64,000 bases of DNA from a phage, in sequence record NC_135729.1. One strand, written 5' to 3'. Positions 182 through 54,213 of the stretch are shown here, piece after piece. The translations under genes and the position numbers were made by a program. The notes beneath the pieces were generated by a model that was not told the DNA's origin, did not search any database, and saw only the letters and a program-made list of their open reading frames with translations. Each line of letters opens with the position of its first letter. The first letter of the stretch is position 1.

Positions 182-283
182 CATTTAATAAATTTAATTA
201 GCACGCTAATTACCCTCCGTAACAATTTCCTATAAAACAGTATCCCATAAAATATTCCCGTATAGAAATTTTAAAAATCCATT

Positions 284-449
284 TCTGAAAACGAAAAATC
301 GATTTCGTCCCCAAAAATTTTAGGCCAAGAGCCGGAGCGATTTCCAGAAAATCCGATTCAGAAAACGAAAAACAGATCGAGTACTGAGAAATTTATCGAG
401 AAAAATTTTCAGAAAATTCAATCTTTGAAACGAAAAACAGATCGAGTAC
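284..449. repeat. imperfect ~65-bp tandem repeats (iteron-like)
   Basis: identical 20-mer ACGAAAAACAGATCGAGTAC at 365-384 and 430-449; degenerate third copy CTGAAAACGAAAAATCGATTTCG at 286-308; flanking CAGAAAAT motifs also repeat. Confidence 0.6.
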
Positions 450-627
450 CTGGAAAGCTGCACCGCAACTTCAAGATAGTGGTTGGATTATTGCTATAAA
501 AGGTCAAGGGTAAGTGGAGGAAGTTCTAGTAGCGAGATGTAAGCATGTGCGGGAAATCTATAATGGTGGTCTGGAATATGGTGCAAACGGTAGGATGAGT
601 GATTCAGCTTGTCGCGCCTACTCTGAA

Positions 628-721
628 AAATCCATTTTAGTTTTCGATCCATTTTCTGATTTTCTAAGGATTTTAAAATATCCTGGCAGGTAAAATATCA
701 AAAGGAGGAAATCCATTTTAG
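628..721. repeat. direct repeats AAATCCATTTTAG
   Basis: AAATCCATTTTAG at 628-640 and 709-721; related GATCCATTTTCTG at 646-658 and AAAATCCATTTCTG near 274-287. Confidence 0.5.
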
Positions 722-760
722 AAATCCTCCTGATCTCTGGCAACCTGATAACTTAAAATA

Positions 761-1093
761 TCAGGCTCCCAGTGTGTTCTTTCCTTTGTACAACCGTAAG
801 GGTATAGTTTTTGTAACAGTCCATCTCCCCAGCCCTTCCCAGTTCCAGTTGTAGGCATGGTACCCGGTTACGCATGCACTGCTAGAGTGGTCATAGGCAT
901 AAGAGAACACTATACGCACCAAATGGAACCAGTCTTTCCACGGTTGTGGTCCGTAAGCTTTTCTCCAACACCGACACAAACTAAATGTCTCAAGAATAGG
1001 CAGGATAACAAATCCATACACCGCCACCAGAATAGCCAGCGCAATGATTGTCAGGAATACATACCCTGCAGTTGAAACGATGATCTCTGTCAT
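761..1093 (-). CDS. hypothetical membrane protein
   Basis: 110-aa ORF; hydrophobic stretch YVFLTIIALAILVAVYGFVILPIL suggests one transmembrane helix; same strand as neighbours. Confidence 0.35.
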   Translation of the reverse strand: MTEIIVSTAGYVFLTIIALAILVAVYGFVILPILETFSLCRCWRKAYGPQPWKDWFHLVRIVFSYAYDHSSSACVTGYHAYNWNWEGLGRWTVTKTIPLRLYKGKNTLGA

Positions 1094-1293
1094 TTGTCGT
1101 CCCCTTTCTTACGGATATAGATGTGAGAACCTGCCTGTATATAAATTTCTCGACCATCTTCTGCGAAGATGTGGAATACACGGTCACCTTCGTACTCAAT
1201 ACGAGATATCTTCATAATGGTCTTTCCACCTGGGATACGGATCTCGTCCCCCACAGCGATGTTCCATGCAGATTTAAGCTTAAACATCTGCAC
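1090..1293 (-). CDS. hypothetical protein
   Basis: 67-aa ORF, 4-nt overlap with downstream gene. Confidence 0.3.
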   Translation of the reverse strand: MQMFKLKSAWNIAVGDEIRIPGGKTIMKISRIEYEGDRVFHIFAEDGREIYIQAGSHIYIRKKGDDK

Positions 1294-1480
1294 CCTCCTT
1301 TGGGAACTTGAACTCTGGCATAGCCATATACGCTACAACAGGGTTGTGATCAAAGTAGAACTGACCGTTAATTATCCCTGTTTTGTCCACATAGTTACCA
1401 GATCCTGCAAGAACAACCTCGCAAGCTCCGAAATCTACATTGCCATCCTCATCAGCCATGGCTACGGATATACTTTCCAA
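1280..1480 (-). CDS. hypothetical protein
   Basis: 66-aa ORF in the minus-strand gene train; competes with plus-strand ORF 1169-1495. Confidence 0.25.
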   Translation of the reverse strand: MESISVAMADEDGNVDFGACEVVLAGSGNYVDKTGIINGQFYFDHNPVVAYMAMPEFKFPKEGADV

Positions 1481-1546
1481 GAGGCATGTTTTTAACGCCG
1501 TCTACAAATGTCCACCCTTTGCTCATACTTTATCTCCTGCGCTTTC

Positions 1547-1879
1547 TTAAGGTAACCAGTAAACAATCTCGCCTTTCAGCTTCATGTCGTTTCCAACATA
1601 AATTTCCCAGCCATCCATCTTAGCAACTGTAGGCCCAAAGTCATCCGCACCCCTTACCTCTTTCCAGGCTCCGTAGTCAGGTTGCCAGATATAGAATCCA
1701 CCTTCTTTGTCCCATGCTCCGTACACTACGTTTAACAGGTTTCCCATTGCAACAATGGTGGGCCGTGGGAATAATACATCTACAGATGCGCCACAATTTC
1801 GAGTATCTTTTAAGTTGCAATCCCAAAAGATGTCTGCCAGTGTGGCGGCGATAGCTTTACGTCTTTCCAATGTTACCAT
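1547..1879 (-). CDS. hypothetical protein
   Basis: 110-aa ORF, co-oriented with neighbours. Confidence 0.4.
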   Translation of the reverse strand: MVTLERRKAIAATLADIFWDCNLKDTRNCGASVDVLFPRPTIVAMGNLLNVVYGAWDKEGGFYIWQPDYGAWKEVRGADDFGPTVAKMDGWEIYVGNDMKLKGEIVYWLP

Positions 1880-1889
1880 GGCACGATAC

Positions 1890-2081
1890 TCACTTGTTGT
1901 TAATAAGGTCTAAAACTTTCTGTCTTACTTTGTCAAGGTCTGTTGATTCAAAAACTGTGCGATATCCCCAACTTTGCCCATAAGAGTGACTGCAATCCCC
2001 GTAGCACCATTGCTCAATTTGATAGTATTCAAGGAACGGGTGCTGTCTAACTATGATACCATCCCGGTTAAAAATTACCAT
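1890..2081 (-). CDS. hypothetical protein
   Basis: 63-aa ORF. Confidence 0.3.
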   Translation of the reverse strand: MVIFNRDGIIVRQHPFLEYYQIEQWCYGDCSHSYGQSWGYRTVFESTDLDKVRQKVLDLINNK

Positions 2082-2144
2082 AATACATCACTCTCTGTTA
2101 GTTTATGCATATATTATACACTGCAGTTTTCAGATGTCAATCTT

Positions 2145-2396
2145 TTACAGGTTACTCCAGTATAATCGGCATTTACATTTTGGGCAATGAGGTTCTTTTA
2201 TGTAATAACCATCAGTCTTTGGAACACTTTTTGGTGCAGTTTTAAGATTGTACCTGGTAAAACATCGGAAGCAGGTCACCTCTCCAACCTGTTGATCGTT
2301 GATCCACTCACCAGAGTAAAGCTCTTTCTTGTTTCTCATAATTCTCTCCCAAATCCTCTGCAATCTTATACCAAAATCTCCAGCCAGAAAGCACAC
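2145..2396 (-). CDS. hypothetical protein, possible Zn-ribbon
   Basis: CFRCF ... CPKCKC cysteine pairs; true start probably internal (MRNKKELY). Confidence 0.35.
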   Translation of the reverse strand: MCFLAGDFGIRLQRIWERIMRNKKELYSGEWINDQQVGEVTCFRCFTRYNLKTAPKSVPKTDGYYIKEPHCPKCKCRLYWSNL

Positions 2397-2590
2397 GGGA
2401 ACACTTTGAGGATTGAATCTTTACTTGGCTCGGAAGTTCTTTTTCCGTATGGTAGGTAGAAATACCCTCCTGCAGATTCGAATATAGCTCCTTCGGTTGT
2501 ATCTACCACAGCAAGAATTAAGATTCTAGTCTCCACAGTGCTCTCCTCTCTTAGTTGTTGTGGAGACTATATCACCTCAGAAGATGGTCG

Positions 2591-3049
2591 TCAACACTTT
2601 TTGTACTCTACTACAACCACATCAATATCTGTGGTTGCAAGATTAATTACATCTTCTACATGTTCCCACTTTAGACCGCCAATACCGCATCCAATTTTAG
2701 GAATGTAGAACGGCAATGACACACCTTTGAATACCTCGTTGACTCGCTCAAAACCTTTCATGATTGAGAAGTATTCAGCATTGGGCCCTGGGTAGAACTG
2801 GGTATACAGGTTGATTCCATATACGACCCTGTTCTTGGCAAAATGCTCCCAACAAGAAAACATACCCAGCTTGTCCAGATTACCATAGGCAGTCTCTTTG
2901 TCGGCTGCCAGTGCTTGAGGGAACTCACGGGCAATATCTTTCGCTATGCCTGCACCCATTGTATGAAAGCAGTTACAACCGTGGATCAGGTGACCAGCAC
3001 CGCTCTTAAAAAGGGAGATTAAATCTCCCGCTACAGTATCAATAATCAC
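2591..3049 (-). CDS. macro-domain protein, TARG1/OARD1-like (putative ADP-ribosyl hydrolase)
   Basis: GDLISLF...HLIHGCNCFHTMGAGIAKDIAREFP and LPFYIPKIGCGIGGLKWEHVEDVI align by eye with the TARG1 signatures GDLFSCP...CRMGAGIA...FKKKFG and LSMPRIGCGLDRLQWENV; length 152 aa fits a single macro fold. Confidence 0.7.
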   Translation of the reverse strand: MIIDTVAGDLISLFKSGAGHLIHGCNCFHTMGAGIAKDIAREFPQALAADKETAYGNLDKLGMFSCWEHFAKNRVVYGINLYTQFYPGPNAEYFSIMKGFERVNEVFKGVSLPFYIPKIGCGIGGLKWEHVEDVINLATTDIDVVVVEYKKC

Positions 3050-3464
3050 GGTATGTCAGCTCCTCTTCCGCAATTTCAAAAAACTCATCCCAACCTTGTG
3101 GCATATTTGAGTTGCCGAAGTGGCTTTCATAGTAAAGGTTCTCACCACTTGGGAGATAGAAATCTGTTACCTCGTAGAATCCACAATCGTCGCACTCGCC
3201 TTCTTCAAACTTGGCCTCAACCTTAATACCTAGGAAGGTGAAAAGTTTATGGATATCTTCAGTTTCGAACTCCCAGCAGATATTGTTTTCCGCATCGGTG
3301 TAGAACTGGATCAGCAGACCATTATCCAGTTTACCAAAATATTCTGTGAAGTAACTACCTTCCCAGAAATCTTTATGACAAATAATATCCATGCGCTTGC
3401 CCATGATAAAGGTGTGGGCGTTTTGGGCATCGTCACGAATCAGTTTTGGCATTTCATAGATCAT
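3039..3464 (-). CDS. hypothetical protein
   Basis: 141-aa ORF overlapping the macro-domain gene start by 11 nt (likely co-translated). Confidence 0.45.
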   Translation of the reverse strand: MIYEMPKLIRDDAQNAHTFIMGKRMDIICHKDFWEGSYFTEYFGKLDNGLLIQFYTDAENNICWEFETEDIHKLFTFLGIKVEAKFEEGECDDCGFYEVTDFYLPSGENLYYESHFGNSNMPQGWDEFFEIAEEELTYRDY

Positions 3465-3532
3465 CTTAGTTCTCCGGGTTCAACAGGTGGTGGTGCTACA
3501 GGAAGATCATAAAACATAGCTATCACAGTCTC

Positions 3533-3730
3533 TTACACAGGAATTGCTTCAAACAGGCCGTTATCTATACCGTCCTTCAGATAGAGATTATACTCTATGT
3601 CGGTATCTGTATAAAGGGCAGCATCCAGCATTCTATCTGTGAGTCCATCCATTGGGTGGAGAAACCACCACCCACGCCAGTCAAAGTAACAGCCTGGTGC
3701 ATCTTCTCTTACACGGATTCGATAAATCAT
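3533..3730 (-). CDS. hypothetical protein
   Basis: 65-aa ORF. Confidence 0.3.
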   Translation of the reverse strand: MIYRIRVREDAPGCYFDWRGWWFLHPMDGLTDRMLDAALYTDTDIEYNLYLKDGIDNGLFEAIPV

Positions 3731-3826
3731 GGGCAGTGGCCTCCTGTTAGTTATACATCCCAGTTTTCTTCGTTCATCGCGTCCTCCCGTTATATGAAGT
3801 TATAATTGCACACCTTTCAACCTGTG

Positions 3827-4243
3827 TCAACAGAAAACTTCAACAAATTCTTCCACAGTTTTAATGTCGTGGGAAAAAGGTTTACGGCTATAACGGGCAA
3901 TAGCACTATCAACCACCGCCCGGTACTCAAGATCTTCAGAGTATTTCATGAAGCATTGTAGTGTTTCTGGACAGATAGCCAGATAGCTCCACCACCCTTC
4001 ATCAGATTGATAGTCAAATCCCATACTCTCCAACCATGAAGCATATACTCCAGCACCCTCAAGCCAGTGAGTATTTTCATCCAGAAACTTGTTAACAGAC
4101 ATGTGAGCTTCTAAGCACTTGTCCAGCTCTTTTCCGTTAACCAGCCACGCACTGACCGTGGCGCATCCAAGGTCTACAGATTGAGTTGACAGGTTGTATT
4201 GGTCATAGTTCTCAGGTTTAACAATGATATCTTCTAATGTCAT
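3827..4243 (-). CDS. hypothetical protein
   Basis: 138-aa ORF. Confidence 0.45.
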   Translation of the reverse strand: MTLEDIIVKPENYDQYNLSTQSVDLGCATVSAWLVNGKELDKCLEAHMSVNKFLDENTHWLEGAGVYASWLESMGFDYQSDEGWWSYLAICPETLQCFMKYSEDLEYRAVVDSAIARYSRKPFSHDIKTVEEFVEVFC

Positions 4244-4260
4244 TTTTCAGATCTCCTTAT

Positions 4261-4290
4261 ACAAAAATGCCCCACCCTTTCGGGCAGGGC
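4261..4290 (-). terminator. rho-independent terminator
   Basis: minus-strand hairpin GCCCTGCCCGAAAGGGTGGGGC (plus 4269-4290) followed by ATTTTTGT; a second copy of the same hairpin is at 15885-15906. Confidence 0.6.
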
Positions 4291-4305
4291 TATGTTAACT
4301 AGGTG

Positions 4306-4929
4306 CTAAAAGTATTCGTAGAGGTATCCATCGGGGGCTGGAATTTTTTCATGAATGTAGTAATCAACACATATTCCGGTTTCTCTTCTACAAGAATTGT
4401 GGGATACCCATTCTTTAAGAACGTTTCCATTCATGTCCAGCCTCCTTACATTTTTACACCGTCTACCGCTGGTGCTTCTATGCAACAGAATATCCTCCGT
4501 CTGCTTGTCTTTATTTTCTCCCCAGGTCGTTAAACGGATATTATCAAAAGAGTACCCTTTGAAATCATCTATCCTGTCACAAGAAGGCTTTTTCCTTTTG
4601 TCGTATCCGCTGGCTACCCACTGGTCATACAACTCTTTGTAACCGTTCAGGTATAGCCACTCCTTAAACTCTTTTTTGGTGTAAGTCGGAGGAGGGTGAC
4701 CTCTTTGCTTGCTGTTGCACTTTTGAGCCTTGTACAACACGCGTATTACACCTTTTTCTGAAGAGTCGTGGGAAAACTGGTCAGCCTCCCTGCTGGCCTT
4801 CTTACAACACTCTTTGCACTTATTAAGATGACCGTCAGACATCTTTGGGTGTTTGTAGAACTCGGAGAGGTTTTTCACCTCTCCGCACTTGATGCACCTC
4901 TTACAATGCGTGGATTCTACTTTTGCCAT
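4306..4929 (-). CDS. HNH homing endonuclease (free-standing)
   Basis: zinc-finger-like [10 protein letters not shown]...CKECCK followed by [28 protein letters not shown] (His-Me finger, DRID-type); the track ORF starts at 5016 but an internal Met ([12 protein letters not shown]) at 4929 is more plausible. Confidence 0.65.
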
Positions 4930-6172
4930 ATTGCAAACCCACTGGAGCGAAAGGTATGTCATCACAGAAGTCATACTGTGCTGGATTCTGATCCATTGGG
5001 TCATCTTCCTCATCATTTACAGGAGGAGCGTCTACAGTGTTTTGCTGTGGAGCTGCTTCCTGTTTGGCAGCCTGAGGTTCTTGATGGTCAGTTGACCCAG
5101 CACCGTTCTTGATCCAATCGTACAACGGCTCAGCCAGATTAGTCAAGACATCTTTTGCTTCTGCAGTAATTGCCGCTGCAAAATCATCAACTTTCGTTTT
5201 CTTGTCAATACGGCGACAAGCGTTCAACACCGCATTACCGACACTGGCACCTACTTCATCTTCAGTTCGGTTGGTGGCTTGAGCATACTCTTTCTTAAGC
5301 TCAATGGTGACTACGTGCAGTGTTTTAGCCACGCCCAGTGGGTCGTCTACCTTAAACCCGCGATCCAGGATGATTTGCAACGCATTGATGCTATGCCCCG
5401 TTTCCACACCGATAGGGTCGTAAGAGGATTTACGCTTGCCACCAGAGCCTTGAGTGCCGTTCTCTGCCTTAGGGGGATAGGCCTTGAAACCACTGATAAT
5501 GTTTCCGGTGTCTTTGTCAACAATGGCTGCAACACGACCACCTACCACCAGGTCTTTAAGCTGCTCATCAGTTACAACCATAGCACCTTCGCCAATCTTG
5601 TGGTCATTAACAGTAACCACGTTGCCAACAATCTGAGTCACATCACCATAGATGCGTAAAACGTCCTGATTGGCATTCTGCTGAGGTTTCTGCTTCTGGC
5701 CTTGTGATTGTGCACCTTGTTGCTGTTTTTGCTGCTGAGTCGCTGCTGGAGCCTCTCCTGCACCCAGCTTAACCATCTTAGCCAGTGAGCCCTTGTAATA
5801 GGTCTTACCGTTATGCTCGTTTGCCTTCAAAGGGATATTTACGATCCATCCTGGCGTTACGGTTTCCCACTTGTCATCAATCTTAACAGAGACAGAGTCT
5901 TGATGACCTGGTTTAAGCAGCTTATCACCCATGCTGATCCAGACTTCTTCACCACCTTGAAGCAGGTTATCAGAGGAATCCAGTTCAGAAATCAGTAAAG
6001 AGATGGTGTGGCTGGATTCAATTTTCTTACCTTGCCACACAGTGGTTTTAATACCTGTTGTAGGATCAGCACCTTTGATAGGCTTGATGCTAACACGTTT
6101 AATCATGCCGTGAGCCAGTAAAACAGTTTCACGCGGATTCATTGGGTTAGCGAATTGTTGAATAACGCTCAT
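4901..6172 (-). CDS. protein with SSB-type acidic C-terminal motif (putative ssDNA-binding or SSB-interactome protein)
   Basis: Q-rich linker ([22 protein letters not shown]) and near-C-terminal YDFCDDIPF resembling the bacterial SSB tail MDFDDDIPF, but followed by a 15-aa extension; the N-terminal fold was not recognised. Confidence 0.4.
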
Positions 6173-33511: not shown

Positions 33512-33550
33512 TTATAAAAAGAAAGGGGCCGTCTGGCCCCTTTTTATTTG
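33511..33550. terminator. bidirectional rho-independent terminator between convergent operons
   Basis: GGGGCC-GTCT-GGCCCC hairpin (33525-33540) flanked by AAAAAGAAA upstream and TTTTTATTTG downstream. Confidence 0.7.
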
Positions 33551-33557
33551 CCTCCTG

Positions 33558-36500
33558 TTAACTAGGGAAGTTTGTATAAGCTTCGAGATGGTATTGCTGG
33601 TTACCAGGTAGCATAACACCTATGCTTGCAACACCTAATGTTCTACCACCAGGGTTCCACTGAAACTTAAATCCAATCCAACCCGAGCTTCTGGCTGCAT
33701 CAATGTTGTCACTGTACCCAAAAGTGGCTAGACCATCAACACCTGCTCCGAAAAGCAGTTGTATCTGGTTCCTTGGTAGGCCAATAATTTCAGGTATGTA
33801 AGCACCAAAAAATGTAGGGTTGGTGGTTGTGGTCGGATTGTTCATGACCGGACCGGTAAAGACCCTCATATTGGACGTTCCTGCAGGTCTAGGGTAAGCC
33901 CCGTCAAGAGGATTTCCTTCCCAAATAAACCACTGAGGTGCCATCTGTCTGACAGTAAACGATGTTGAAGACGTTTTGCGGCCTGCATCATCTCTAACTA
34001 CAAACTTTATGGTGACATTCCCAGTAGCTTTAAATGTTACCAGCCCCGTGGTGGCATCCACTGTTGCAATGTTGGTATTACTACTTTCCCAAGTCTTTCT
34101 AATCCCTGATACGTTGGAAGGGGTGATAGAAGGTTCCTGCATCTGCAGTTTACCGCCCACAATCCCTATGCCGTTGCCCGGATTATACAGCACACCGACC
34201 TCGTCTATAATGTTCCCTGCTTTGAGACTATACTTCCTTGAGAAGTTGTAAGTTCCGTTATAAGTGTGTGTCCCTGAGAATGTGACATCTGCCTTCCCGT
34301 AAGAGATGCAAACCAAAGCATACTTCCTGTCAGGCAACGTTTCTCCAGTCTCTGGGTGAGTTTTACCCACCTGGAACACGCTCGGGTCGGTAGAGTCGTG
34401 ACTATCGCTAATGGAGCTTGTACCGCCCATCAACTGTGACAAACAATTCCTTACCCATGTCCAGTTATTATCACTGGAGAAGTCCACAGTCAAATCAAAC
34501 ACAACCCACTCATTCGGCTTCCACACAGGTGTTGCAATGGACTTGCCTACACCGCCTCCTTGGAGTGTTGCCGACTGTTCGGTGATCAGTGCCGCATAGG
34601 CCAGAGTTCCTAAACTCAGAGTCTGGCTTGCTGTCCTCACTACCTTAGAATCAGCATCTGTGAAGTTGTTGATGATTTGGAATGTGCCATAAGTGTTTTT
34701 ACAGGTAATTCTGGCGTTCAGTGTGTCAATCTTCCTCACATCTGCCATAGCAGTGTTAGACACAGAGAAGTCAGAAGCTTTAGCTGAGTTTGCCGCAACA
34801 GCAGGATCAACGTTAAGAGTTGCGTTGAACTGACAGGCAGGGGTAACCAGCAGCTTGTTATCACCTATTTGCCTCCATGAAACACTTTGAACAGGAAGAT
34901 TCCATTTAATACCTGAGAAAACCTTAGCAACCCTTGGCCCCAAAGCTCCAGTCCTGTTGTCTTTACAGCACATAGACATGGTGATCGTTGACGGAGTGGC
35001 CTGACCAAATAATTGCTGTGCTTTTGCAGAGGACATAGTGTAGAAATTGTCCTTAACAAACTCATCAGCAGCTAAAGATCCATCAGGTCTCCACCACTGA
35101 ACCTGATACCCTGTTTTATCCCAACCACCGACCTGCTTCAAGTCCTCCCAAGAGATTTCCAGATCCCCCGTGGTCGGGTTGATTGCAGCAGTTCCTGGTG
35201 TACCGGATGACCACAATGGGATATCAAACCACGCAGGTTTAACAGATTGCACTGCATTAGGACCTATTGCAGCAGCAAGTTGTTGACCCATCAGCACGCG
35301 AGCATCTTTCACCAGACCCCATTCTATCATAGACCCAGAGTAACCTTCTTTCTTGTAGGCCGAAGATCCGTTCAAATGGATAAGTCTGCTGCAGTCGAAA
35401 CCATACGCCCCGCCACCGTTAGGATCTGCAAAGTTAGTTATGATTCTATCCCTTATATTTTTCCATGCCCTGCCTCCAATCTCATAGTCATGGTCATAAC
35501 ATCTCTGCAGCGTTGTCCAGCAAATGATTGCCATTCTTCTGCCACCAGTAAACCCGAAAGCGCCGTCATTCAACTCTTTCCACAGATAGCAGTTAGTTGC
35601 CCACATAGCTCTGTGGATATTGAACCAGTTTATAGACTTAGCAGAATTGTCCCACTGAGTTCCCGGTAATTCAGGCCACACCGCATTCACCAGCATATCC
35701 TCTGTGCCAGCATCGACCAGGAAGCCTCTTACCTTCCTACCCATCCCTTCTCTGTCTTTAGCAATCCAATTGCCAAACAGCCTCAGTTTTGGACCATAAA
35801 CAACATCTTCAGGGTGCTCAAAAGAAACATACTTCAAGTATACCGTAGGATCACCGTAGGTGCCATCACAAACACTTTTATGCATGTTCTCACCCAGGTC
35901 TAGACGAAGTCCTGTCACCACTTTAGATGTGTCGGTGAATTTGTCTGTTAAGTCAAATTCATACCACCACCACCCGCCACCTAGCATAAATTTCTTGCAT
36001 CGCACAGCGTCTGTGTCAGATATTCTCTTATCCCCTGCAAAAGGTGAATCAGCAAACTGATAGTGCAGAGCAGTCTCAAATAGGTGGGTGGAAGTTCCGT
36101 TCTCTGCAAGAACTTGCTTACCTATCAGATCGCACTTAATGATCATCACAACACGCTTGTATCCGTTTGTTACCGGAACTTGCATAGATATGGATGTTCC
36201 ATCCATGTTCGATCTTAGATCACTCATGATGATATAGGGGTCGACAGCGTTACCTAAAGTTTCAGGCCCTGGAATTATCTTGTATTTCTTGACCTGGCCC
36301 ATAAATCTGTCACTGGCGTAAGTTGCAGCCTCAAAACAAGAGCCACCACCAGGTAATTCTCCAGGTCCCCAGAAAAATGCCCCATAGCAGTTATAGAACC
36401 ACTTATTAGGGTCGTATTTGTTCTTGAAGGTCTGGACCTCGTTGGCCTGTTTTGTCAAGAAAACCTGCGTATCTGTAAAGATTGCAGGATTTACCCTTGC

Positions 36501-39185
36501 CTGACGCGGAGGGTAACCTGTAGTTTGGTTAAACCACAAATTACAAGAGTAATCCCTCATATAGTCATAATCAGAGTATTTGTTTACATCTTCGTTCCAA
36601 CACATGTTTAGGTTGGTACCGCCCATGCATACAATATATTCTGCGACATACTTATCACTTCTGGCAGGAATACCTATGAACCATCTGTTAACAGGCTCAT
36701 CCCAAGCTGTGCGCTCATCTTTAACGCAGATAGCAATCCAATCATGTGTTCCTGTTTTCTTGCACACATCTCGCTTCATACCATAGTAGAACTCTTTAGT
36801 ATTTGGCTCAGGTGCATTTATCAGGTAACTCCATGCCTGATTTGCATAAGTCCCATTGGTGCGCGGATCATGATCAAAGGCATACATGATGATCCTTTCC
36901 CCACCAAGATGTTCGCCAAGAGTAACTTTGACATTCACATCGCCGTAACCGTTGCGAACAACATCCATATTGTCAATAGAGATGCCTCTAGGAGTGTAGG
37001 CAATTTTCAGTGAGTTATCCTCACTAGTGCCACCAAGAGTGATCCCTATGTTGTTTGTTGTCCCGTCGGCATATCTTACTGTAGCTTCCCAGCGTATTCC
37101 GAAATATCCTACATCATGGCTGACAATTTTCAGTGTACGAGCGCCAGGGTGAGGTTTTCCAGGATCAGGCCAAGGATCTGGATGTTCGTGGACAGTCAAC
37201 GACGTTCCGTTTTGCTCGTTAACCTGCAACATTTTACCACCTCTGCCGTTAGGGTTGAACTCCCATACGGCCTGTGTCTGCACCAAGTTGTTGTAGGTAT
37301 TTCGTCTCTGATCATAAATCTCTTGGGTAACATCATAAGTGACTGATCCAGCATCCATTCTGTGGAGTCGGACCATATACGATGTATCCCCTTCTACTGC
37401 AGGCTGAGTCCCATTCAGTCCGAAGTATACAGTATCGTTAACATGGAACTGTTTGTTTCTACCGACAGTATGCCACTTGCCGTTGGACGGATACGCAGGA
37501 ACTATAGTGTTCCAGTTCAAAGTCCTTGTCGTATAGGTTCTTCCAGTGCCATGCTTGTCATGGTAGGTGATCTTGATAGAATACAAACCACGTCTGTTGA
37601 TGTTACGGTTATACTGGGTGACCACAACTTCGTTAGCACCACCATGGTTCCAGTTAGTGGAGAACTGATAGTTTGCATCTGTAACAACAGTGCCTGCAGC
37701 ATTTACCAACTCAATCTTGTCAATAATGAACGTAGCACCCTCCGGCTGAGGTTTCAATTTCATCTTGACAGTATCTCCGATGTAAATGTTGCTAACATTG
37801 CTCACACCATTGACATCAAAGATGTCTTCGATACCCCAGCTATCTACCGGGACATTTTTATACCAATTCTCCGGAATCTCTGTGAACCCTTGGCTGTTAA
37901 GTCTGCCGCCAAAGAGGTTATTAGATCCTGAAAAACTTCCCCTTGGGATGCCTGACCACCAAAGTTTACCATTAACAACAGTAAAGGTCCCTAAGAAACC
38001 TTCTCTATGGATGCCTTGGAAATAAACACTCTCTGTCCAGCTAACTGGCAGGCGTTGCTCAACATATTTAGCTGTAGCAAGAGCTTGATAGTGGATAAAA
38101 TCGGACCTAGGACTATTGTTTGCAGATTGTGCACCAATATCATTACACAAGTTGCGAGAGAATCCACGATACTGCTTGGTGCCATTATTGAAGAAAATGC
38201 CACTTGTGCCGTACCCACGAGCCATTATTACCTCATGGGTGTAGGTGATATTCAGTTCCCGCCATGTATCATCTCCCCAAATGTTTTGACCATAAAATAC
38301 GTTAACAAGCTGCTGGTCATCGGGTCTATGCATCCTCTGTGTGGCAATTATTGCCCCGTTAGGACCGCACATAAACCCTTTCCACTCCTCATCTGCAGGA
38401 ATGCCCCTCAAATCGTTACGAGTAATCTGCACAGGAGGCCAAACAAGGTCGTTTCTACTGTTATTTCTCAGAAAGTCGTATCCAGCAATCCAGAAACCTC
38501 TAGGACCACCGAAAATAACAGAGTTGTCATGCACCTCGCAGTTGATGCTTGGGTTTTTCCAAGGACCTGTTTCAGGATTTTCCGATGTCTCACCAATCTT
38601 TACAGGGGTTGCATGCTGATTTTTGTCAACATGAAGAGAGCCGTAAGTATTATTGCCAGAGCCGTACAGGTGAAGCATACCATCAGCCTCTGGTGCAGCA
38701 ATTACCCACACTGTATTGTTTACGCCACCCATTACTTCAACAAGTCTCTCAGGATGGGTGTCCAAATGCAACCCTGTTACGATCTGTTCCGGCAAAGGTG
38801 TCCACTCTCTGACACAAACATCGTTTCCACCTGCTGCCTCCGATCCGATAAGACCAGCTGTGCAACCAATATAGAAAAATTTATTATCGAATGTGCGGAT
38901 TACAAATGCACGGTCAGCTCTCCAAACATGGTCTACGTTCCAAGCTGCCTCATTAGGATAGTTTATTGTATCAAGATCTCCAGTCCGACACTCTCCGAAC
39001 CTATTATAGCCAGTAATATTAAGCTGACCATCATCAAAAAGTATAGCTAAGCTATTTACATAGGATACTGTGTTGCTTGTACCATCACTGTTGTCTATTG
39101 GGTATGACAGAACAGCAAGTTCCTTAATTCCACCCCTCTTATCGAGGAAATGACGACCAAGTTTTAGCAAAGGGATTGGAAGCAT
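33558..39185 (-). CDS. giant tail-associated adhesin/fibre-like protein (1875 aa)
   Basis: N-terminal RCC1-like repeat signatures (YGSGNNTYGSLHVD); Big_2-type Ig-like segment (SNVSGIRKTWESSNTNIATVDATTGLVTFKATGNVTIKFVVRDDAG); last gene of the late operon. Confidence 0.5.
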   Translation of the reverse strand: MLPIPLLKLGRHFLDKRGGIKELAVLSYPIDNSDGTSNTVSYVNSLAILFDDGQLNITGYNRFGECRTGDLDTINYPNEAAWNVDHVWRADRAFVIRTFDNKFFYIGCTAGLIGSEAAGGNDVCVREWTPLPEQIVTGLHLDTHPERLVEVMGGVNNTVWVIAAPEADGMLHLYGSGNNTYGSLHVDKNQHATPVKIGETSENPETGPWKNPSINCEVHDNSVIFGGPRGFWIAGYDFLRNNSRNDLVWPPVQITRNDLRGIPADEEWKGFMCGPNGAIIATQRMHRPDDQQLVNVFYGQNIWGDDTWRELNITYTHEVIMARGYGTSGIFFNNGTKQYRGFSRNLCNDIGAQSANNSPRSDFIHYQALATAKYVEQRLPVSWTESVYFQGIHREGFLGTFTVVNGKLWWSGIPRGSFSGSNNLFGGRLNSQGFTEIPENWYKNVPVDSWGIEDIFDVNGVSNVSNIYIGDTVKMKLKPQPEGATFIIDKIELVNAAGTVVTDANYQFSTNWNHGGANEVVVTQYNRNINRRGLYSIKITYHDKHGTGRTYTTRTLNWNTIVPAYPSNGKWHTVGRNKQFHVNDTVYFGLNGTQPAVEGDTSYMVRLHRMDAGSVTYDVTQEIYDQRRNTYNNLVQTQAVWEFNPNGRGGKMLQVNEQNGTSLTVHEHPDPWPDPGKPHPGARTLKIVSHDVGYFGIRWEATVRYADGTTNNIGITLGGTSEDNSLKIAYTPRGISIDNMDVVRNGYGDVNVKVTLGEHLGGERIIMYAFDHDPRTNGTYANQAWSYLINAPEPNTKEFYYGMKRDVCKKTGTHDWIAICVKDERTAWDEPVNRWFIGIPARSDKYVAEYIVCMGGTNLNMCWNEDVNKYSDYDYMRDYSCNLWFNQTTGYPPRQARVNPAIFTDTQVFLTKQANEVQTFKNKYDPNKWFYNCYGAFFWGPGELPGGGSCFEAATYASDRFMGQVKKYKIIPGPETLGNAVDPYIIMSDLRSNMDGTSISMQVPVTNGYKRVVMIIKCDLIGKQVLAENGTSTHLFETALHYQFADSPFAGDKRISDTDAVRCKKFMLGGGWWWYEFDLTDKFTDTSKVVTGLRLDLGENMHKSVCDGTYGDPTVYLKYVSFEHPEDVVYGPKLRLFGNWIAKDREGMGRKVRGFLVDAGTEDMLVNAVWPELPGTQWDNSAKSINWFNIHRAMWATNCYLWKELNDGAFGFTGGRRMAIICWTTLQRCYDHDYEIGGRAWKNIRDRIITNFADPNGGGAYGFDCSRLIHLNGSSAYKKEGYSGSMIEWGLVKDARVLMGQQLAAAIGPNAVQSVKPAWFDIPLWSSGTPGTAAINPTTGDLEISWEDLKQVGGWDKTGYQVQWWRPDGSLAADEFVKDNFYTMSSAKAQQLFGQATPSTITMSMCCKDNRTGALGPRVAKVFSGIKWNLPVQSVSWRQIGDNKLLVTPACQFNATLNVDPAVAANSAKASDFSVSNTAMADVRKIDTLNARITCKNTYGTFQIINNFTDADSKVVRTASQTLSLGTLAYAALITEQSATLQGGGVGKSIATPVWKPNEWVVFDLTVDFSSDNNWTWVRNCLSQLMGGTSSISDSHDSTDPSVFQVGKTHPETGETLPDRKYALVCISYGKADVTFSGTHTYNGTYNFSRKYSLKAGNIIDEVGVLYNPGNGIGIVGGKLQMQEPSITPSNVSGIRKTWESSNTNIATVDATTGLVTFKATGNVTIKFVVRDDAGRKTSSTSFTVRQMAPQWFIWEGNPLDGAYPRPAGTSNMRVFTGPVMNNPTTTTNPTFFGAYIPEIIGLPRNQIQLLFGAGVDGLATFGYSDNIDAARSSGWIGFKFQWNPGGRTLGVASIGVMLPGNQQYHLEAYTNFPS

Positions 39186-39195
39186 TGTGTTCTCC

Positions 39196-39227
39196 AGATA
39201 AGAAAACCGCCCCGTCAGGAGCGGTTA
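39196..39227 (-). terminator. rho-independent terminator or attenuator
   Basis: minus-strand AACCGCTCCTGACGGGGCGGTT hairpin followed by TTCTTATCT. Confidence 0.45.
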
Positions 39228-39235
39228 GATATATA

Positions 39236-40981
39236 TTAACGTTGTGCAATTACTACGTCTACGATATCACCAACACCACAATATGTTAATTGCAGCAAGG
39301 TAACACTATTAGCCTTGTTATTAATAACAGGCGTTGCCGACAGGATAGCATACTTATCGTGCAAAGTCACGTTGTGACCTACAGCATCCTGAATGACATA
39401 GATAACCGCAGTGAATGGATAAGGTTTATCTTCCGCTGATGTACCAGGCCATTGTCCTATTGTAAAATCCCCTTTCGCGTGGACAACATACATACTGGCC
39501 TGCCCGTTAGGTGTCCATGTCCCACTGGACGCGTCAACCTCCTCTAAATCAAAATCTACCTTTCCTGCGTGGAAAGTAGGGGCAGTAATGGTTTTACCCG
39601 CCTCAATTTCTTGAGAGGTGGTTATCTTGCCACTGGAGTTAATGCCATTACAAACAAAGTTGACATTAGAGAAGTCTGGCAGCCACCCAGTCACTGTGCC
39701 GGATATTTCAAGGTTGTGAAGGTAGGTGGTGCCCGTCCCTGCTGCGTTTAAACTAACATCTCCATTTACCTGCAAGTTTCTGGTAACGTTGCAGTTTTCA
39801 GAGTTTGCAGTTGTTGCAGTTAAAGTAGTGGTTGTCAGCTCGGTAATTACACCTTTGTTGGCTGTAAGCCCTTCCCCTTCAAAAGTTGCACGCTCATTGA
39901 CTCTTAGGGTATTCAGAGCTATGTTTTGGATAGAGGCTGTACCTCGAATAACTACAGATCCGCCAACTTCTAAATCACCATTTATTAATGCGTCCCCCGT
40001 GCTTTCAATATAGCTAGGGTAAATCATGGTGCCATCGACAGAGTAGGTTATCCCTGTAACAGTGCCTGTCACCTCAAGGTTCTTAACCCTGGTGGTTCCA
40101 TCTACCTGCAATGTCGGTTCTGTTGCTGCCTTCATGGCATTACCACGAATGTACACGTAGTCAAAAAAGTTATTACCTAGACCATCAAAATGCACATCGT
40201 TATTATTAGCCACTGGTTTCCCAGAAGTTATAGTGTCAGCTATAACCCTGTGGGTGGACACTTCATGAGGTTGCAGCTCTGTGCTTCTCCAGTCTGCATG
40301 CTTAGGATCACTCCACGCAAAAGTAAGTGTAGAAGTATTTGCCGTGAGGATTAGGTTCCTGAAGCGTGCAGTAGAATCTGCTCCATTAACAGGCCCATGT
40401 AAGGTGAGTGTGCCACCAACTATAGTGTTAGCAAGTTCTGTAAGACCTTTTACCACCAAAGACCCTACAGTAACTTTCATTCCCTCCATGGCTTCAAATA
40501 TGCTATCCACATAGTCAACAACAAACTCTGTGTTTGCTATAGACTCGGATTTGTCGTCCATTGGAGGCGTAGGTACTCGCGGGTCACCTTCGAACCTCGG
40601 ACTGTTAAGTTTTGCGTAGTATTTTGCCATTACTGCAGAATCGGTATATAATCTCCAGTTTGGAGATTGTGAAGGATCTGCTGGCATTCTAACCGGGTTA
40701 GATTTTGATGCTGCGGGAGCGTACCACCACTGAGGGCCTGTGTCCCCTTTAAACTCGTACAGCTGGTTAAAAACTGTTGTGGATGCACCATACGCCCAAG
40801 GGATTGGTGGCGTTTTAAAATAAAGGGTGTCAAGCATGGCTTTTCGTACCGTAGGGATGGTGGTCCCATCCTCTACGACAACTTCATCCACAGCGTTACC
40901 GTTGACAATCAGGTGCAAACGTTCAGAATCAACAATTACTTGATCTACCGCCTGCTCAAAGCTTGTCATGTCTTGCGCCAT
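39236..40981 (-). CDS. tail fibre protein
   Basis: 581 aa, Gly/Thr/Asn-rich beta-structure-like repeats (NLEVTGTVTGITYSVDG, NLEISGTVTG). Confidence 0.45.
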   Translation of the reverse strand: MAQDMTSFEQAVDQVIVDSERLHLIVNGNAVDEVVVEDGTTIPTVRKAMLDTLYFKTPPIPWAYGASTTVFNQLYEFKGDTGPQWWYAPAASKSNPVRMPADPSQSPNWRLYTDSAVMAKYYAKLNSPRFEGDPRVPTPPMDDKSESIANTEFVVDYVDSIFEAMEGMKVTVGSLVVKGLTELANTIVGGTLTLHGPVNGADSTARFRNLILTANTSTLTFAWSDPKHADWRSTELQPHEVSTHRVIADTITSGKPVANNNDVHFDGLGNNFFDYVYIRGNAMKAATEPTLQVDGTTRVKNLEVTGTVTGITYSVDGTMIYPSYIESTGDALINGDLEVGGSVVIRGTASIQNIALNTLRVNERATFEGEGLTANKGVITELTTTTLTATTANSENCNVTRNLQVNGDVSLNAAGTGTTYLHNLEISGTVTGWLPDFSNVNFVCNGINSSGKITTSQEIEAGKTITAPTFHAGKVDFDLEEVDASSGTWTPNGQASMYVVHAKGDFTIGQWPGTSAEDKPYPFTAVIYVIQDAVGHNVTLHDKYAILSATPVINNKANSVTLLQLTYCGVGDIVDVVIAQR

Positions 40982-42315: not shown

Positions 42316-42360
42316 GTTCTCCTGAGAAAATTCCTTAGGACTATTTTAACACTTTAGGGA

Positions 42361-44379: not shown

Positions 44380-46452
44380 TTATGAGAAGTCTGGCGGGAC
44401 AACATCCTCTACATACCCTTTCAGAGCAACCTGCCCCATATGAAGCACGGTAGAATCTCTAGCGGTAACAGTGATGCTGTCAGACATTACTTGCGGGTAT
44501 GCCCACACATACTGTTTTACCTCAGGGTATCTATACTCTATAGTTGCCATGTTTCCGCAAATACATCTCCATAAAAATTCTTGGTAATTCCTGGTTGGGT
44601 CGTAGCCATATACCGGAGCAAGCTCTTTACTAGGAACGAACCCTGCAAGGTATTGTATTTCAGACGGTTGCCAACCTAACTTAACGATAGGTATGTTTAC
44701 AGACTCTTTTGCCTTTTCAATACCTCCCTGCATCACCCAATCGTAGCACTCGGTGCAGAAGAAATCAAGAGCACCTGCTTCCTTTTTATATTGGTCAGCA
44801 AGGTTCAGCTTTTGCGTAAGCTCGGTTTCCATGATGGTTGGGAAAAACAGCAAAGCTGTCATCTGAGCTGATGCAGCGTGTGCCTTTATTGCCTTTGAAA
44901 TAGCCGCAATACGAGCGCCAAGCTTACCACGACAAAATGCTACATACTTGTCGTAAACACCGCCAGTTTTAGGATCGTCAATAGTCCCAATATCTAATGC
45001 ATACTCACCTGTCTCATCATAAAACGCCTGCTTTGTAGGGTAATCATAAATACAAGGTCTACGAGTATCGGTATTGTACCACCACCACGGTTCACCAACC
45101 TGCATAATCACTGGCAGGTTGTTTCTCATAGCGGCTGATGCAAAATTCTTAAATACTGCAGTAAGGAAATTCATACCCTCTTCAATGGTTGGAGACAGGA
45201 GGTAGCTACAGGGTGTATACCCTGTTTTAGCGTAGTTATCGTTCCAGTCTCTTTGGGTCCATTCCAACGGGCAGGCATCGCTGAAAAGCTCAAAACTTAC
45301 AGATTGCATAACGTCGAAGTTATGTCGTTTGGCATTGTACATAAAATCATCATGCCATTTATAAGCTGCAGCGTTTAGCGCCCCTGTTCTGTTTATAGAC
45401 CATTGGGTTCCTGACCATGTGTAGTCATAATAATGACTCATACCAACATAATGGTTTATGGTTCCGGTATAGCCCAGACGCTTGATATTGTTCAACACCC
45501 TTAAAGGAGATACGTTCCACATATCGTCATATGCGGTGCAGATCCCAACGTCGTGCTCTTTAACCTGAATATTGTTAAGTTGCATCATTTTCCAGCCTGT
45601 GTCTGGCTGAAGCAGATCTAGGCGCAACTCACACTCTACATTTTCCGTTCTCGGGTCTGTGCTATTACTTACCCAGTCTTTAGGCATGAGTGGTATTAAA
45701 ATCCTTCTCACCTGCCGAGGATCAACACCCATCATGTTGTTGTTCTGGTCCATCCCGACGCAGTCCTCAAAATCAATATGAATTTCTGCAACATTCTTAT
45801 CCTCTGAGATGCTGACAGCATATTGAGCTAAAGGAACATAGATGATTGTGCCATCAACAAGGTCTACAGTCATAATCATCTTTTCAGGAGTGGAGAAGTT
45901 GCTGGCGTTGGTTATTGACATTCTGAACCAGAGCTTGGTGTTTCTCATCTCATAGTGATCATCAAACCCAATGCCGAAATGGTCATACTTGTCAACTGTT
46001 TCCCAAATACACCCAGCCATACCTCCATATGTTCTTGACACTAAACGGTTAATACAACAGTTGTTATCTGCAACAATACAGGTACTTTCAGTCTGCTGAG
46101 TAGTTGTAACCCAATACCTTGGGTGAAACATTCTCTCCTCAACAGTATCCCAAGATATCCTGTCAAGATTCTCATCTGAAACTATTGTACATTTCGCCCT
46201 TTGTGTTCCAATCATTACCCCTTGGGATTTTGATGAAAACTCCATAAAGAAGCTTCTTGGCAACCTGTTGGGTAATTTGTCAACAATTTCCACGGGGATC
46301 TCAATACTTGTTGCCCCAACTGGGATAGTTATATCGCCCTCAACATGATTATAATCCCTACCAGGAACGGCAGTATCCTGAACTGTTCGGTAATGAAACT
46401 GTGCAGCCATTGTAGAGTAATCACGGTAAGGTTTAAAAACAGCTGTTGCCAT
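44380..46452 (-). CDS. structural (baseplate/tail-associated) protein
   Basis: 690 aa; N-terminal Calx-beta-like segment (AVPGRDYNHVEGDITIPVGATSIEIPVEIVD); no catalytic motif recognised. Confidence 0.35.
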   Translation of the reverse strand: MATAVFKPYRDYSTMAAQFHYRTVQDTAVPGRDYNHVEGDITIPVGATSIEIPVEIVDKLPNRLPRSFFMEFSSKSQGVMIGTQRAKCTIVSDENLDRISWDTVEERMFHPRYWVTTTQQTESTCIVADNNCCINRLVSRTYGGMAGCIWETVDKYDHFGIGFDDHYEMRNTKLWFRMSITNASNFSTPEKMIMTVDLVDGTIIYVPLAQYAVSISEDKNVAEIHIDFEDCVGMDQNNNMMGVDPRQVRRILIPLMPKDWVSNSTDPRTENVECELRLDLLQPDTGWKMMQLNNIQVKEHDVGICTAYDDMWNVSPLRVLNNIKRLGYTGTINHYVGMSHYYDYTWSGTQWSINRTGALNAAAYKWHDDFMYNAKRHNFDVMQSVSFELFSDACPLEWTQRDWNDNYAKTGYTPCSYLLSPTIEEGMNFLTAVFKNFASAAMRNNLPVIMQVGEPWWWYNTDTRRPCIYDYPTKQAFYDETGEYALDIGTIDDPKTGGVYDKYVAFCRGKLGARIAAISKAIKAHAASAQMTALLFFPTIMETELTQKLNLADQYKKEAGALDFFCTECYDWVMQGGIEKAKESVNIPIVKLGWQPSEIQYLAGFVPSKELAPVYGYDPTRNYQEFLWRCICGNMATIEYRYPEVKQYVWAYPQVMSDSITVTARDSTVLHMGQVALKGYVEDVVPPDFS

Positions 46453-48640: not shown

Positions 48641-48673
48641 GTCACTCCTCCGGTATGAAAATCTCTACAAGGT

Positions 48674-48702
48674 ATTTTACCAAATTTTGTAACAATAGTC
48701 AA
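48674..48702 (-). promoter_or_regulatory. sigma70-like promoter with extended -10
   Basis: minus strand TTGACT - 17 nt - TGG-TAAAAT; directly follows the terminator at 48709-48738. Confidence 0.45.
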
Positions 48703-54153: not shown

Positions 54154-54184
54154 TGTGCCTCCAGGTTAAACAATCATGATAGTT

Positions 54185-54213
54185 ATTTTACCAGATTTTG
54201 AGTTAATACGCAA
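54185..54213 (-). promoter_or_regulatory. sigma70-like promoter with extended -10
   Basis: minus strand TTGCGT - 17 nt - TGG-TAAAAT; same CAAAATYTGGTAAAATA block as at 48674-48690. Confidence 0.4.

What the first reader, a model, noticed from the sequence alone, without database searches (positions are those of the whole stretch)
33558..39185. 1875-aa terminal gene of the late operon with RCC1-like and Ig-like segments
By far the largest ORF in the window, bracketed by terminators, with an N-terminal RCC1-like repeat region, a Big_2-type Ig-like segment near the C-terminus and extensive Trp/Tyr/Asn-rich sequence in between. It could be a decorated fibre, an adhesin with enzymatic activity or an ejected protein.
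Basis: partly seen in the sequence, partly recalled or inferred. Interest (0 to 1): 0.45.

Follow-up and report, generated by a model that had tools for sequence, protein, structure and literature searches.

The report
Giant accessory adhesin of rV5-like phage
The 1875-residue gene is real and intact; it is the already catalogued but functionally unstudied "gp27" of rV5-like E. coli phages, most likely a dispensable virion adhesin built from an RCC1-like propeller, a long chain of Ig-like and sugar-binding-like domains, and a swappable tip.

Summary
There is one intact 1875-codon ORF at 33558..39185, on the minus strand. It is the largest in the window and is flanked by two hairpin terminators. 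The window is a Vequintavirus (98.6% nt identity to phage PDX), and the gene is the orthologue of rV5 gp27, annotated by BASEL as "lateral tail fiber protein with intimin domain".

- **Confirmed:** Big_2 domain at residues 1682-1733.
- **Supported only indirectly:** the RCC1-like N-terminus. Smaller positional homologues in related genera pass Pfam's RCC1 threshold, and a joint profile hits HERC1/HERC2/RPGR/UVR8 propellers.
- **C-terminal ~550 residues:** a string of Ig-like domains. The last ~124 residues are an allelic cassette with two types.
- **Residues 841-1330:** no detectable homologue outside the family among 1.84 billion representative proteins. One sub-domain is probably CBM-like.
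- **Catalytic, trimerisation or ejection signatures:** none found.

Published data add that three gp27 peptides were found in rV5 virions and that the orthologue is dispensable on E. coli K-12. Several deposited genomes carry it disrupted. Even so, dN/dS is 0.03-0.15 along its whole length.

Best reading: a low-copy, conditionally useful glycan-binding adhesin or side fibre. It is a known gene of unknown function, of modest interest.

The parts
33558..39185 (-). Complete CDS, 1875 aa plus stop; orthologue of rV5 gp27 / bas54_0041 / bas56_0040
   Evidence: PHROG 15684 matched end to end
39192..39195 (-). Shine-Dalgarno GGAG, 6 nt upstream of the ATG
   Evidence: read from the sequence
39205..39226 (-). 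Intrinsic-terminator-like hairpin (9 bp stem, 6 GC pairs, T-rich tail) between the upstream 581-aa gene and this gene; equals rV5 t028. The gene has no late-promoter motif of its own, so expression probably needs read-through (inference).
33522..33543 (-). Terminator-like hairpin after the stop codon, shared with the convergent plus-strand genes; equals rV5 t027/t026
39138..39185 (-). Residues 1-16, N-terminal peptide with the M-x-P-I-P motif. It is conserved in all positional homologues, and phi92 gp152 keeps it even though it has lost the propeller. Candidate attachment peptide (inference).
37851..39128 (-). Residues ~20-445, RCC1-like beta-propeller region and the most conserved part of the family. 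Residues 1-197 are 41% identical to the Phapecoctavirus homologue.
36666..37838 (-). Residues 450-840, all-beta region with Ig-like sandwiches (model of modest confidence). Weak Bact_surface_Ig-like hits in 12 of 16 family members.
35196..36665 (-). Residues 841-1330, family-specific orphan module with no homologue outside the gp27 family in an exhaustive HMMER search; dN/dS ~0.03
35814..36281 (-). [not shown]
35235..35810 (-). Residues 1126-1317, Trp-rich and highly conserved (motifs GTEDMLVNAVWP, INWFNxHRAMW, EGYSGSMIEWG). Predicted helical, but pLDDT is below 30, so the fold is unknown.
34146..35201 (-). Residues 1329-1680, three Ig/FN3-like beta-sandwich domains (pLDDT 56-93); the most variable region across the family
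33951..34142 (-). Residues 1682-1745, Big_2 (bacterial Ig-like group 2) domain; this is the 'intimin domain' of the BASEL annotation
33561..33929 (-). Residues 1753-1875, C-terminal tip domain. It is an allelic cassette with two types among Vequintaviruses (37 records >=95% identical, 76 records 60-80%), exchanged independently of the rest, and absent outside this family in the phage collection.

Best explanation
This is the Vequintavirus orthologue of rV5 gp27. It is a virion-associated accessory adhesin, or 'side fibre', that the phage does not need on E. coli K-12. It is the greatly expanded member of a conserved family of 'RCC1-like propeller + Big_2' tail proteins. That family occupies the last position of the tail-fibre gene cluster in rV5-like, PVP-SE1-like and phAPEC8-like phages. 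The proposed working is as follows. The conserved N-terminal end (the M-x-P-I-P peptide and/or the propeller) holds the protein on the virion, probably at the baseplate and fibre periphery. A chain of Ig-like sandwiches, the family-specific central module (with a probable CBM-like sandwich) and further Ig/FN3/Big_2 domains project outward as beads on a string. The exchangeable C-terminal ~124-residue tip, together with the Ig/CBM-like domains, makes weak multivalent contacts with surface polysaccharides of particular hosts or environments. This would raise adsorption or extend host range. Shown here or in the literature: ORF integrity, domain content, synteny, mosaicism, purifying selection, presence in virions, and dispensability on K-12. 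Inferred: location on the tail, glycan binding, monomeric state, and low expression by terminator read-through.
For: - **Identity and annotation:**
- **Virion presence:** 3 peptides (3.1% coverage) of gp27 in rV5 virion mass spectrometry (PMC3606486 Table S5).
- **Dispensability:** bas54_0041, 94% nt identical to this gene, tolerates transposon insertions on K-12 (preprint 10.1101/2025.11.20.689424). Deposited genomes carry it disrupted: magaca has TAT->TAG at codon 617 and DrSchubert has a 1-nt deletion. About 10 of about 44 listed annotated records have it split, and split fragments appear in BFVD.
- **Maintained in nature:** dN/dS is 0.03-0.15 in every segment.
- **Family and synteny:** it is the last gene of the fibre cluster in a 40%-identical metagenomic relative. 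The same position holds in Phapecoctavirus (891 aa; RCC1-like + 2 Big_2 + a C-terminus like the RcGTA head-spike fibre) and in Seunavirus (567-604 aa; RCC1 above Pfam's cut-off + Big_2).
- **Propeller:** 41% identity over residues 1-197, E 2e-27. The joint profile hits HERC1 at E 3e-9, plus HERC2, RPGR, UVR8 and RCC2.
- **Receptor-binding-type variation:** the N-terminus is conserved, the C-terminus is variable, and the tip cassette has two alleles and a mosaic distribution.
Against: - No experiment places the protein on the tail. Cryo-EM of Bas54 and Bas49 resolved only 3 of 9 annotated fibres and did not assign this one (PMC12143355).
- Mass-spectrometry support is thin (3 peptides).
- No ligand is known.
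- The model of residues 1-1000 is poor (mean pLDDT 40), and residues 838-968 and 1126-1317 modelled poorly, so about a third of the protein has no fold assignment.
- The C-terminal domain of the Phapecoctavirus homologue resembles a head-spike fibre, and PHROG 215 (Ig part) is filed under 'head and packaging'. A capsid location is therefore not excluded.
Confidence: 0.55

Rival explanations
1. A capsid or neck decoration protein in the manner of T4 Hoc. It would be anchored on the head and display Ig-like domains that bind mucus or other environmental glycans, rather than acting as a tail fibre.
For: The Ig-like array resembles Hoc and other Ig-bearing head and tail-tube proteins. PHROG 215, 'structural protein with Ig domain', is filed under head and packaging. 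The C-terminus of the Phapecoctavirus homologue is homologous to the RcGTA head-spike fibre (6tb9, E 4e-14). The gene is dispensable, like hoc. It was not found among the baseplate fibres in Bas54 cryo-EM.
Against: The gene always sits at the end of the tail-fibre cluster, far from the capsid genes, in four genera. PHROG 11922, which covers the N-terminus, is filed as a tail protein. An allelic tip and a mosaic pattern are typical of host-receptor binders.
Confidence: 0.15
2. An enzymatically active fibre. The orphan central module (residues 841-1330), especially the conserved Trp- and acid-rich helical part, would be a new glycan-degrading or glycan-modifying domain, fitting the 'Swiss army knife' fibre set of these phages.
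For: This is the most strongly constrained part of the gene (dN/dS ~0.03). It has invariant acidic and aromatic motifs, and a probable CBM-like sandwich lies next to it. Neighbouring fibre genes carry glycosidase or deacetylase domains.
Against: No catalytic family was detected by Pfam, NCBIfam, PDB sequence or fold searches. No homologue of any kind exists outside the family. The helical model is unreliable.
Confidence: 0.12
3. An internal or ejected protein that is delivered into the host with the DNA.
For: It is very large and present in virions at low abundance.
Against: Its domain content is that of extracellular display proteins: Ig-like, Big_2 and probable CBM-like domains plus an RCC1-like propeller. 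Virions without it are infective. It is encoded with the fibres, not with head-internal proteins.
Confidence: 0.02
4. A decaying or artefactual ORF: a fusion of several genes, or a pseudogene in progress.
For: It is split into 2-4 CDSs in about 10 of the listed genomes and is dispensable on K-12.
Against: It is intact here and in most of 107 near-full-length matches. It stays full length down to 40% identity. Purifying selection is strong over all segments.
Confidence: 0.02

Closest known systems
rV5 gp27 and its Vequintavirus orthologues (PHROG 15684; BASEL 'lateral tail fiber protein with intimin domain', e.g. bas54_0041, bas56_0040)
   Same: It is the same gene: 94% aa identity to the rV5-type cluster, 98.6% nt identity to phage PDX, the same flanking terminators and the same position.
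   Different: The window carries the PDX/AlexBoehm type of the C-terminal ~124-residue tip, not the rV5 type (about 62% identity).
'Tail protein' of Seunavirus (4MG gp038, PVP-SE1 gp040 type) and Phapecoctavirus (JR319_gp042); PHROG 11922
   Same: The position is the same (last gene of the fibre cluster). They share the M-x-P-I-P N-terminus, an RCC1-like propeller and Big_2 domains towards the C-terminus.
   Different: Those proteins are 567-891 aa long. The Vequintavirus protein has about 1200 extra residues between the propeller and the Big_2 (Ig-like sandwiches, the orphan module, FN3/Ig-like domains) and a different tip. phi92 gp152 has lost the propeller.
Ig-like-domain accessory proteins of tailed phages (T4 Hoc, lambda gpV C-terminal domain, N4 gp65 sheath Ig domains)
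   Same: They share surface-displayed Ig-like/Big_2 domains, dispensability, and presumed weak carbohydrate binding (the general role rests on established knowledge, not tested here).
   Different: This protein is far larger and combines the Ig array with a propeller, an orphan module and an allelic tip. It is encoded with the fibres.
Intimin/invasin family of bacterial adhesins
   Different: There is no beta-barrel anchor, LysM or C-type-lectin tip. The NCBIfam intimin score is 21 bits against a cut-off of 1400. The 'intimin domain' label means only Big_2.
Eukaryotic RCC1-like domains (HERC1/2, RPGR, UVR8, RCC2)
   Same: The blade motif (YGSGxNxxGxLG) is shared, and a profile that includes this protein hits these seven-bladed propellers.
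   Different: The relationship is only remote. This sequence alone does not reach any Pfam threshold. Blade number and closure are unverified because the model is poor.

Membership tests
RCC1-like repeat beta-propeller (Pfam PF00415 / PF25390) | The sequence reaches the family's curated Pfam score | tested here: not met
   There is no RCC1 hit on the window protein at E<=1. 12 of 16 family members give sub-threshold PF25390 hits (best E 1e-4) and 4 of 16 hit PF00415.
RCC1-like repeat beta-propeller (Pfam PF00415 / PF25390) | Demonstrable homology to proteins that do pass the threshold, and profile hits to solved RCC1-like domains | tested here: met
   Residues 1-197 are 41% identical (E 2e-27) to a protein with PF00415 above its cut-off and PF25390 at E 7e-11. 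Seunavirus homologues score 28-37 bits against a cut-off of 21.7. The joint profile hits HERC1 at E 3e-9, plus HERC2, RPGR, UVR8 and RCC2.
RCC1-like repeat beta-propeller (Pfam PF00415 / PF25390) | Seven ~50-60-residue blades closing into a propeller | tested here: inconclusive
   The AF2 model of residues 1-1000 has pLDDT below 50 over residues 144-450. Self-comparison with hhalign found no significant internal repeat. A motif scan finds 4 clear blade motifs.
Big_2 bacterial Ig-like domain (PF02368) | Pfam gathering score; Ig-like beta-sandwich | tested here: met
   34.7 bits against a cut-off of 22.8, residues 1682-1733. Modelled at pLDDT 77-93. Structural matches to intimin, Lig, Sap and lambda gpV-C.
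Classical trimeric phage tail fibre / tailspike | Trimerising elements: coiled coil, triple beta-helix, collagen repeats, C-terminal intramolecular chaperone, or a dedicated assembly chaperone next to the gene | tested here: not met
   Pfam and NCBIfam find none. Fold matches are to monomeric Ig-domain strings. The Caudo_TAP chaperone gene lies about 3.5 kb upstream, beside the short-fibre genes, not next to this gene. Neighbouring genuine fibres do show Peptidase_S74 or Tail_spike_N.
Classical trimeric phage tail fibre / tailspike | Located on the baseplate of the virion | not testable with these tools
   The only data are 3 peptides in rV5 virions and no assignment in Bas54/Bas49 cryo-EM.
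Ig-decorated accessory phage adhesins (Hoc-like) | Structural protein bearing exposed Ig-like domains and dispensable for infectivity in the laboratory | tested here: met
   Ig-like array. Dispensability comes from the literature and from natural nonsense and frameshift variants.
Ig-decorated accessory phage adhesins (Hoc-like) | Binds glycans or mucin | not testable with these tools
   There is only a structural resemblance of one sandwich to CBMs.
Intimin / invasin | Full-length equivalog score; N-terminal beta-barrel anchor and C-terminal lectin-like domain | tested here: not met
   NCBIfam intimin_all scores 21.3 bits against a cut-off of 1400, and only residues 1696-1734 align.
Glycan depolymerase / deacetylase fibre | A recognisable catalytic domain | tested here: not met
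   None found by sequence or fold. The orphan region has no homologues, so a novel enzyme is not excluded.

The most novel reading that the evidence does not exclude
gp27 would not be a trimeric fibre at all. It would be a monomeric, beads-on-a-string giant adhesin held on a myovirus by a short N-terminal peptide or an RCC1-like propeller, which would be a distinct architectural class of receptor-binding protein. In this reading its strongly constrained 490-residue orphan module (residues 841-1330, with no homologue among 1.84 billion representative proteins) is a new fold with its own binding or catalytic activity. That activity would decide infection of particular natural hosts.
Probability: 0.2. 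Interest if true: 0.55.

Novelty: already known. Interest (0 to 1): 0.28.

Why it matters
rV5-like phages are used against pathogenic E. coli, including O157, and carry an unusually large set of fibres. It is still unclear which gene makes which fibre. This gene is the largest of the set and the least understood. Three points give concrete handles for host-range engineering and for assigning the unresolved densities in Vequintavirus baseplates:

- It is an expanded "propeller + Ig" tail protein.
- It has a swappable tip with two alleles.
- It is dispensable on K-12 yet strongly conserved in nature.

The orphan central module is also a clean target for structure determination.

Tried and rejected
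- **Direct domain parsing of the full protein** (Pfam, NCBIfam, PDB phmmer, and a full-length family profile against PDB) found only Big_2.
- **AF2 on residues 1-1000** with the 16-sequence family alignment gave a mean pLDDT of 40, unusable for fold search.
- **hhalign self-comparison** of the N-terminal 460 residues found no significant internal repeats.
- **Word-indexed homologue searches** with the N-terminal 460 aa and with the C-terminal 123 aa returned only fragments of the same family.
- **Exhaustive HMMER** with residues 841-1330 returned only the family itself.
- **The published remark** that LL12 gp27 resembles the N-terminus of phi92 gp150 (PMC7229145) was not reproduced. BLASTP against phi92 gp150 gives nothing better than E 6.5. 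The true phi92 counterpart is gp152, which has lost the propeller.
- **'Several genes fused by sequencing error'** was rejected.
- **'Intimin-like'** was rejected as a family assignment.

Full report
**Observation.** The window holds one uninterrupted 1875-codon ORF on the minus strand, 33558..39185, with an ATG start. It is the largest ORF in the window; the next are 1279 and 1271 aa.
- A GGAG ribosome-binding site lies 6 nt upstream of the ATG.
- One G+C-rich hairpin followed by T's lies between the preceding gene and the start (39226-39205). Another lies just after the stop (33543-33522).
- The gene closes the minus-strand structural block and converges on a plus-strand block of small genes.
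- Trp, Asn and Gly are enriched relative to the window's other long ORFs. Tyr is not.

**Identity.** The gene is 98.6% identical in DNA to phage PDX and 86-96% identical to more than 100 Vequintavirus (rV5-like) genomes.
- It is the orthologue of rV5 gp27 (1878 aa, 208 kDa). That protein was listed in 2013 as a conserved hypothetical protein with Big_2, and the same two terminators (t028, t027/t026) were already predicted there (PMC3606486 Tables S3 and S4).
- The BASEL collection annotates it as "lateral tail fiber protein with intimin domain" (bas56_0040, bas54_0041). PHROG 15684 matches it end to end.
- The object is therefore already catalogued. Its function is not known.

**Published data on the protein.**
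- Three gp27 peptides (3.1% coverage) were found in purified rV5 virions (PMC3606486 Table S5).
- In transposon mapping of phage Bas54, bas54_0041 tolerated disruptive insertions. It is therefore dispensable for infecting E. coli K-12 and for making infective virions (preprint 10.1101/2025.11.20.689424). I confirmed that bas54_0041 is the orthologue.
- Cryo-EM of Bas54 and Bas49 found density for only three of the nine annotated fibres and did not assign this one (PMC12143355).
- The BASEL paper notes moderate allelic variation in this gene (PMC8594841).

**Integrity and selection.**
- The orthologues in AlexBoehm, MaxTheCat and MaxBurger are intact.
- Phage magaca has a TAT->TAG nonsense change at codon 617. 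DrSchubert has a 1-nt deletion near nt 5375 that truncates the protein to 1818 aa.
- In a spread list of 60 records, about 10 of about 44 annotated near-full-length records have the gene split into two or more CDSs. BFVD holds such fragments from phages ime, V18 and APECc02. Some of these splits may be sequencing errors.
- Pairwise dN/dS between the window and four orthologues is 0.03-0.15 in every segment, and lowest (0.03) in the central module. dS varies from 0.03 to 0.50 between segments, a sign of mosaic recombination.
- The gene is thus expendable in the laboratory but maintained as a whole in nature.

**N-terminus.** Pfam gives no RCC1 hit on this sequence. The family and its relatives do give such hits.
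- 12 of 16 family members give sub-threshold hits to the RCC1-like domain PF25390.
- tblastn with residues 1-460 finds the first ~200 residues, at 30-41% identity, in "tail proteins" of Phapecoctavirus, Seunavirus (4MG, PVP-SE1-like) and Cronobacter phages.
- Those genes are also the last of their tail-fibre clusters. Their architecture is RCC1-like propeller + two Big_2. PF00415 scores 24-37 bits against a cut-off of 21.7.
- The Phapecoctavirus protein adds a C-terminal domain homologous to the RcGTA head-spike fibre (6tb9, E 4e-14).
- The window protein aligns with these propellers over its first ~440 residues. A profile of that alignment hits the RCC1-like domains of HERC1 (E 3e-9), HERC2, RPGR, UVR8 and RCC2.
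- The RCC1-like assignment is therefore supported by transitive homology, although the blade count could not be verified.
- phi92 gp152 keeps the first 16 residues and the two Big_2 domains but has cleanly lost the propeller. This hints that the M-x-P-I-P peptide matters for attachment.
- The published similarity to phi92 gp150 was not reproduced.

**Body and C-terminus.** Only 15 homologous clusters exist in the 5.8-billion-sequence collection. All are full length (40-94% identity) and come from ~110-140 kb contigs with the same gene order. Conservation falls from the N-terminus (about 75-85% column identity) to the C-terminal third (25-45%). The AF2 model of residues 760-1875 has a mean pLDDT of 57.
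- It gives usable beta-sandwich domains at residues 969-1124, 1329-1439, 1449-1569 and 1589-1759 (the last includes the Big_2).
- It gives a weaker C-terminal domain.
- It fails on residues 838-968 and on the helical, Trp-rich stretch 1126-1317.

An independent BFVD model of a 293-residue C-terminal fragment superposes on it with TM 0.87.
- Foldseek against PDB and BFVD returns strings of Ig-like domains: NUP210, cadherins, S-layer proteins, Hoc, and Ig-bearing tail proteins.
- No catalytic fold appears.

**Orphan module.** An exhaustive HMMER search used a profile of residues 840-1330 against 1.84 billion cluster representatives. It found only the family itself.

**Tip.**
- Many Vequintavirus records match only nt 1-5256 of the gene. 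The last ~124 residues, just after the Big_2, exist in two types: 37 records are at least 95% identical to the window and 76 records are 60-80% identical.
- The tip type does not follow the rest of the gene. The rV5-type cluster is 94-100% identical except in the tip (50-76%). A 76%-identical cluster has a 96-98% identical tip.
- The tip occurs nowhere else in the phage collection.

**Expression (inference).** The rV5 late-promoter motif occurs upstream of the genes that end at 42315, 48640 and 54153. It does not occur in the 50-nt gap before this gene, which holds a terminator instead. The gene is probably expressed by read-through at a low level, which would fit the sparse mass-spectrometry signal.

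**Interpretation.** The best-supported reading is a low-copy accessory adhesin (confidence about 0.55).
- It would have a conserved N-terminal attachment and propeller end, a long stalk of Ig-like and CBM-like domains with a family-specific core, and an exchangeable tip.
- It would bind surface glycans of certain hosts and would not be needed on K-12.
- It lacks every hallmark of a trimeric fibre that its neighbours show.
- The rivals are a head decoration, a novel enzyme in the orphan module, an ejected protein, and a decaying gene. They are weighed in the rivals section.
- The object is already known as a gene. What this analysis adds is its family context, its domain map, the orphan module, the tip cassette, and the contrast between laboratory dispensability and natural constraint.

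Noticed in passing
public records matching window 33558-39185: 15-16 GenBank records named 'Campylobacter phage' (MG0656xx, host C. jejuni, unannotated) are 93-98% identical to this E. coli Vequintavirus gene over its full length. They look like mislabelled or contaminant rV5-like coliphages.
   Followed up: no
P0018: A 318-aa 'hypothetical protein, partial [Eggerthella lenta]' from NCBI is 96% identical to part of the N-terminus of this phage protein. It is probably phage contamination of a bacterial assembly.
   Followed up: no
L009:6321-7983 (phi92 gp152-gp153): In phi92 the positional counterpart is a 202-aa protein that keeps the first 16 residues and two Big_2 domains but has cleanly lost the ~400-residue propeller. 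It is followed by a 295-aa ORF annotated with 'no RBS, weak prodigal statistics', which has no similarity to the Phapecoctavirus protein.
   Followed up: partly
window 44380-46452 (-): A 690-aa fibre protein has an N4 gp65-type 'non-contractile tail sheath' N-domain and TIM barrel (PF23844/PF23845, E 4e-80) plus Calx-beta. This is the deacetylase-like fibre that BASEL links to enterobacterial common antigen recognition.
   Followed up: no
window 39236-40981 (-): The 581-aa upstream neighbour has no hit in the local Pfam copy. Its 584-aa homologue in L005 carries precomputed PF26208/PF26209 (Phage_phiTE_241 N and C domains), which links it to a protein of the Certrevirus phiTE.
   Followed up: no
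window 38007-39050 (+): A 347-aa antisense ORF, with several others of 140-190 aa, lies wholly inside the gene on the opposite strand. It is most likely a by-product of the gene's codon composition. The strong purifying selection on the minus-strand frame supports that frame as the coding one.
   Followed up: no
window 42342-42351, 48673-48682, 54184-54193 (-): The rV5 late-promoter core TGGTAAAATA (one copy TGTTAAAATA) sits just upstream of three fibre/baseplate genes. With one mismatch allowed, the motif occurs 17 times in the window against 5.6 expected by chance.
   Followed up: partly
L007:6001-8676 (Phapecoctavirus JR319_gp042): Residues 580-831 of this 891-aa tail protein are homologous to the Rhodobacter gene-transfer-agent head-spike fibre Rcc01080 (PDB 6tb9, E 4e-14). 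This is an unexpected link between a coliphage tail-cluster protein and a GTA capsid adhesin.
   Followed up: no
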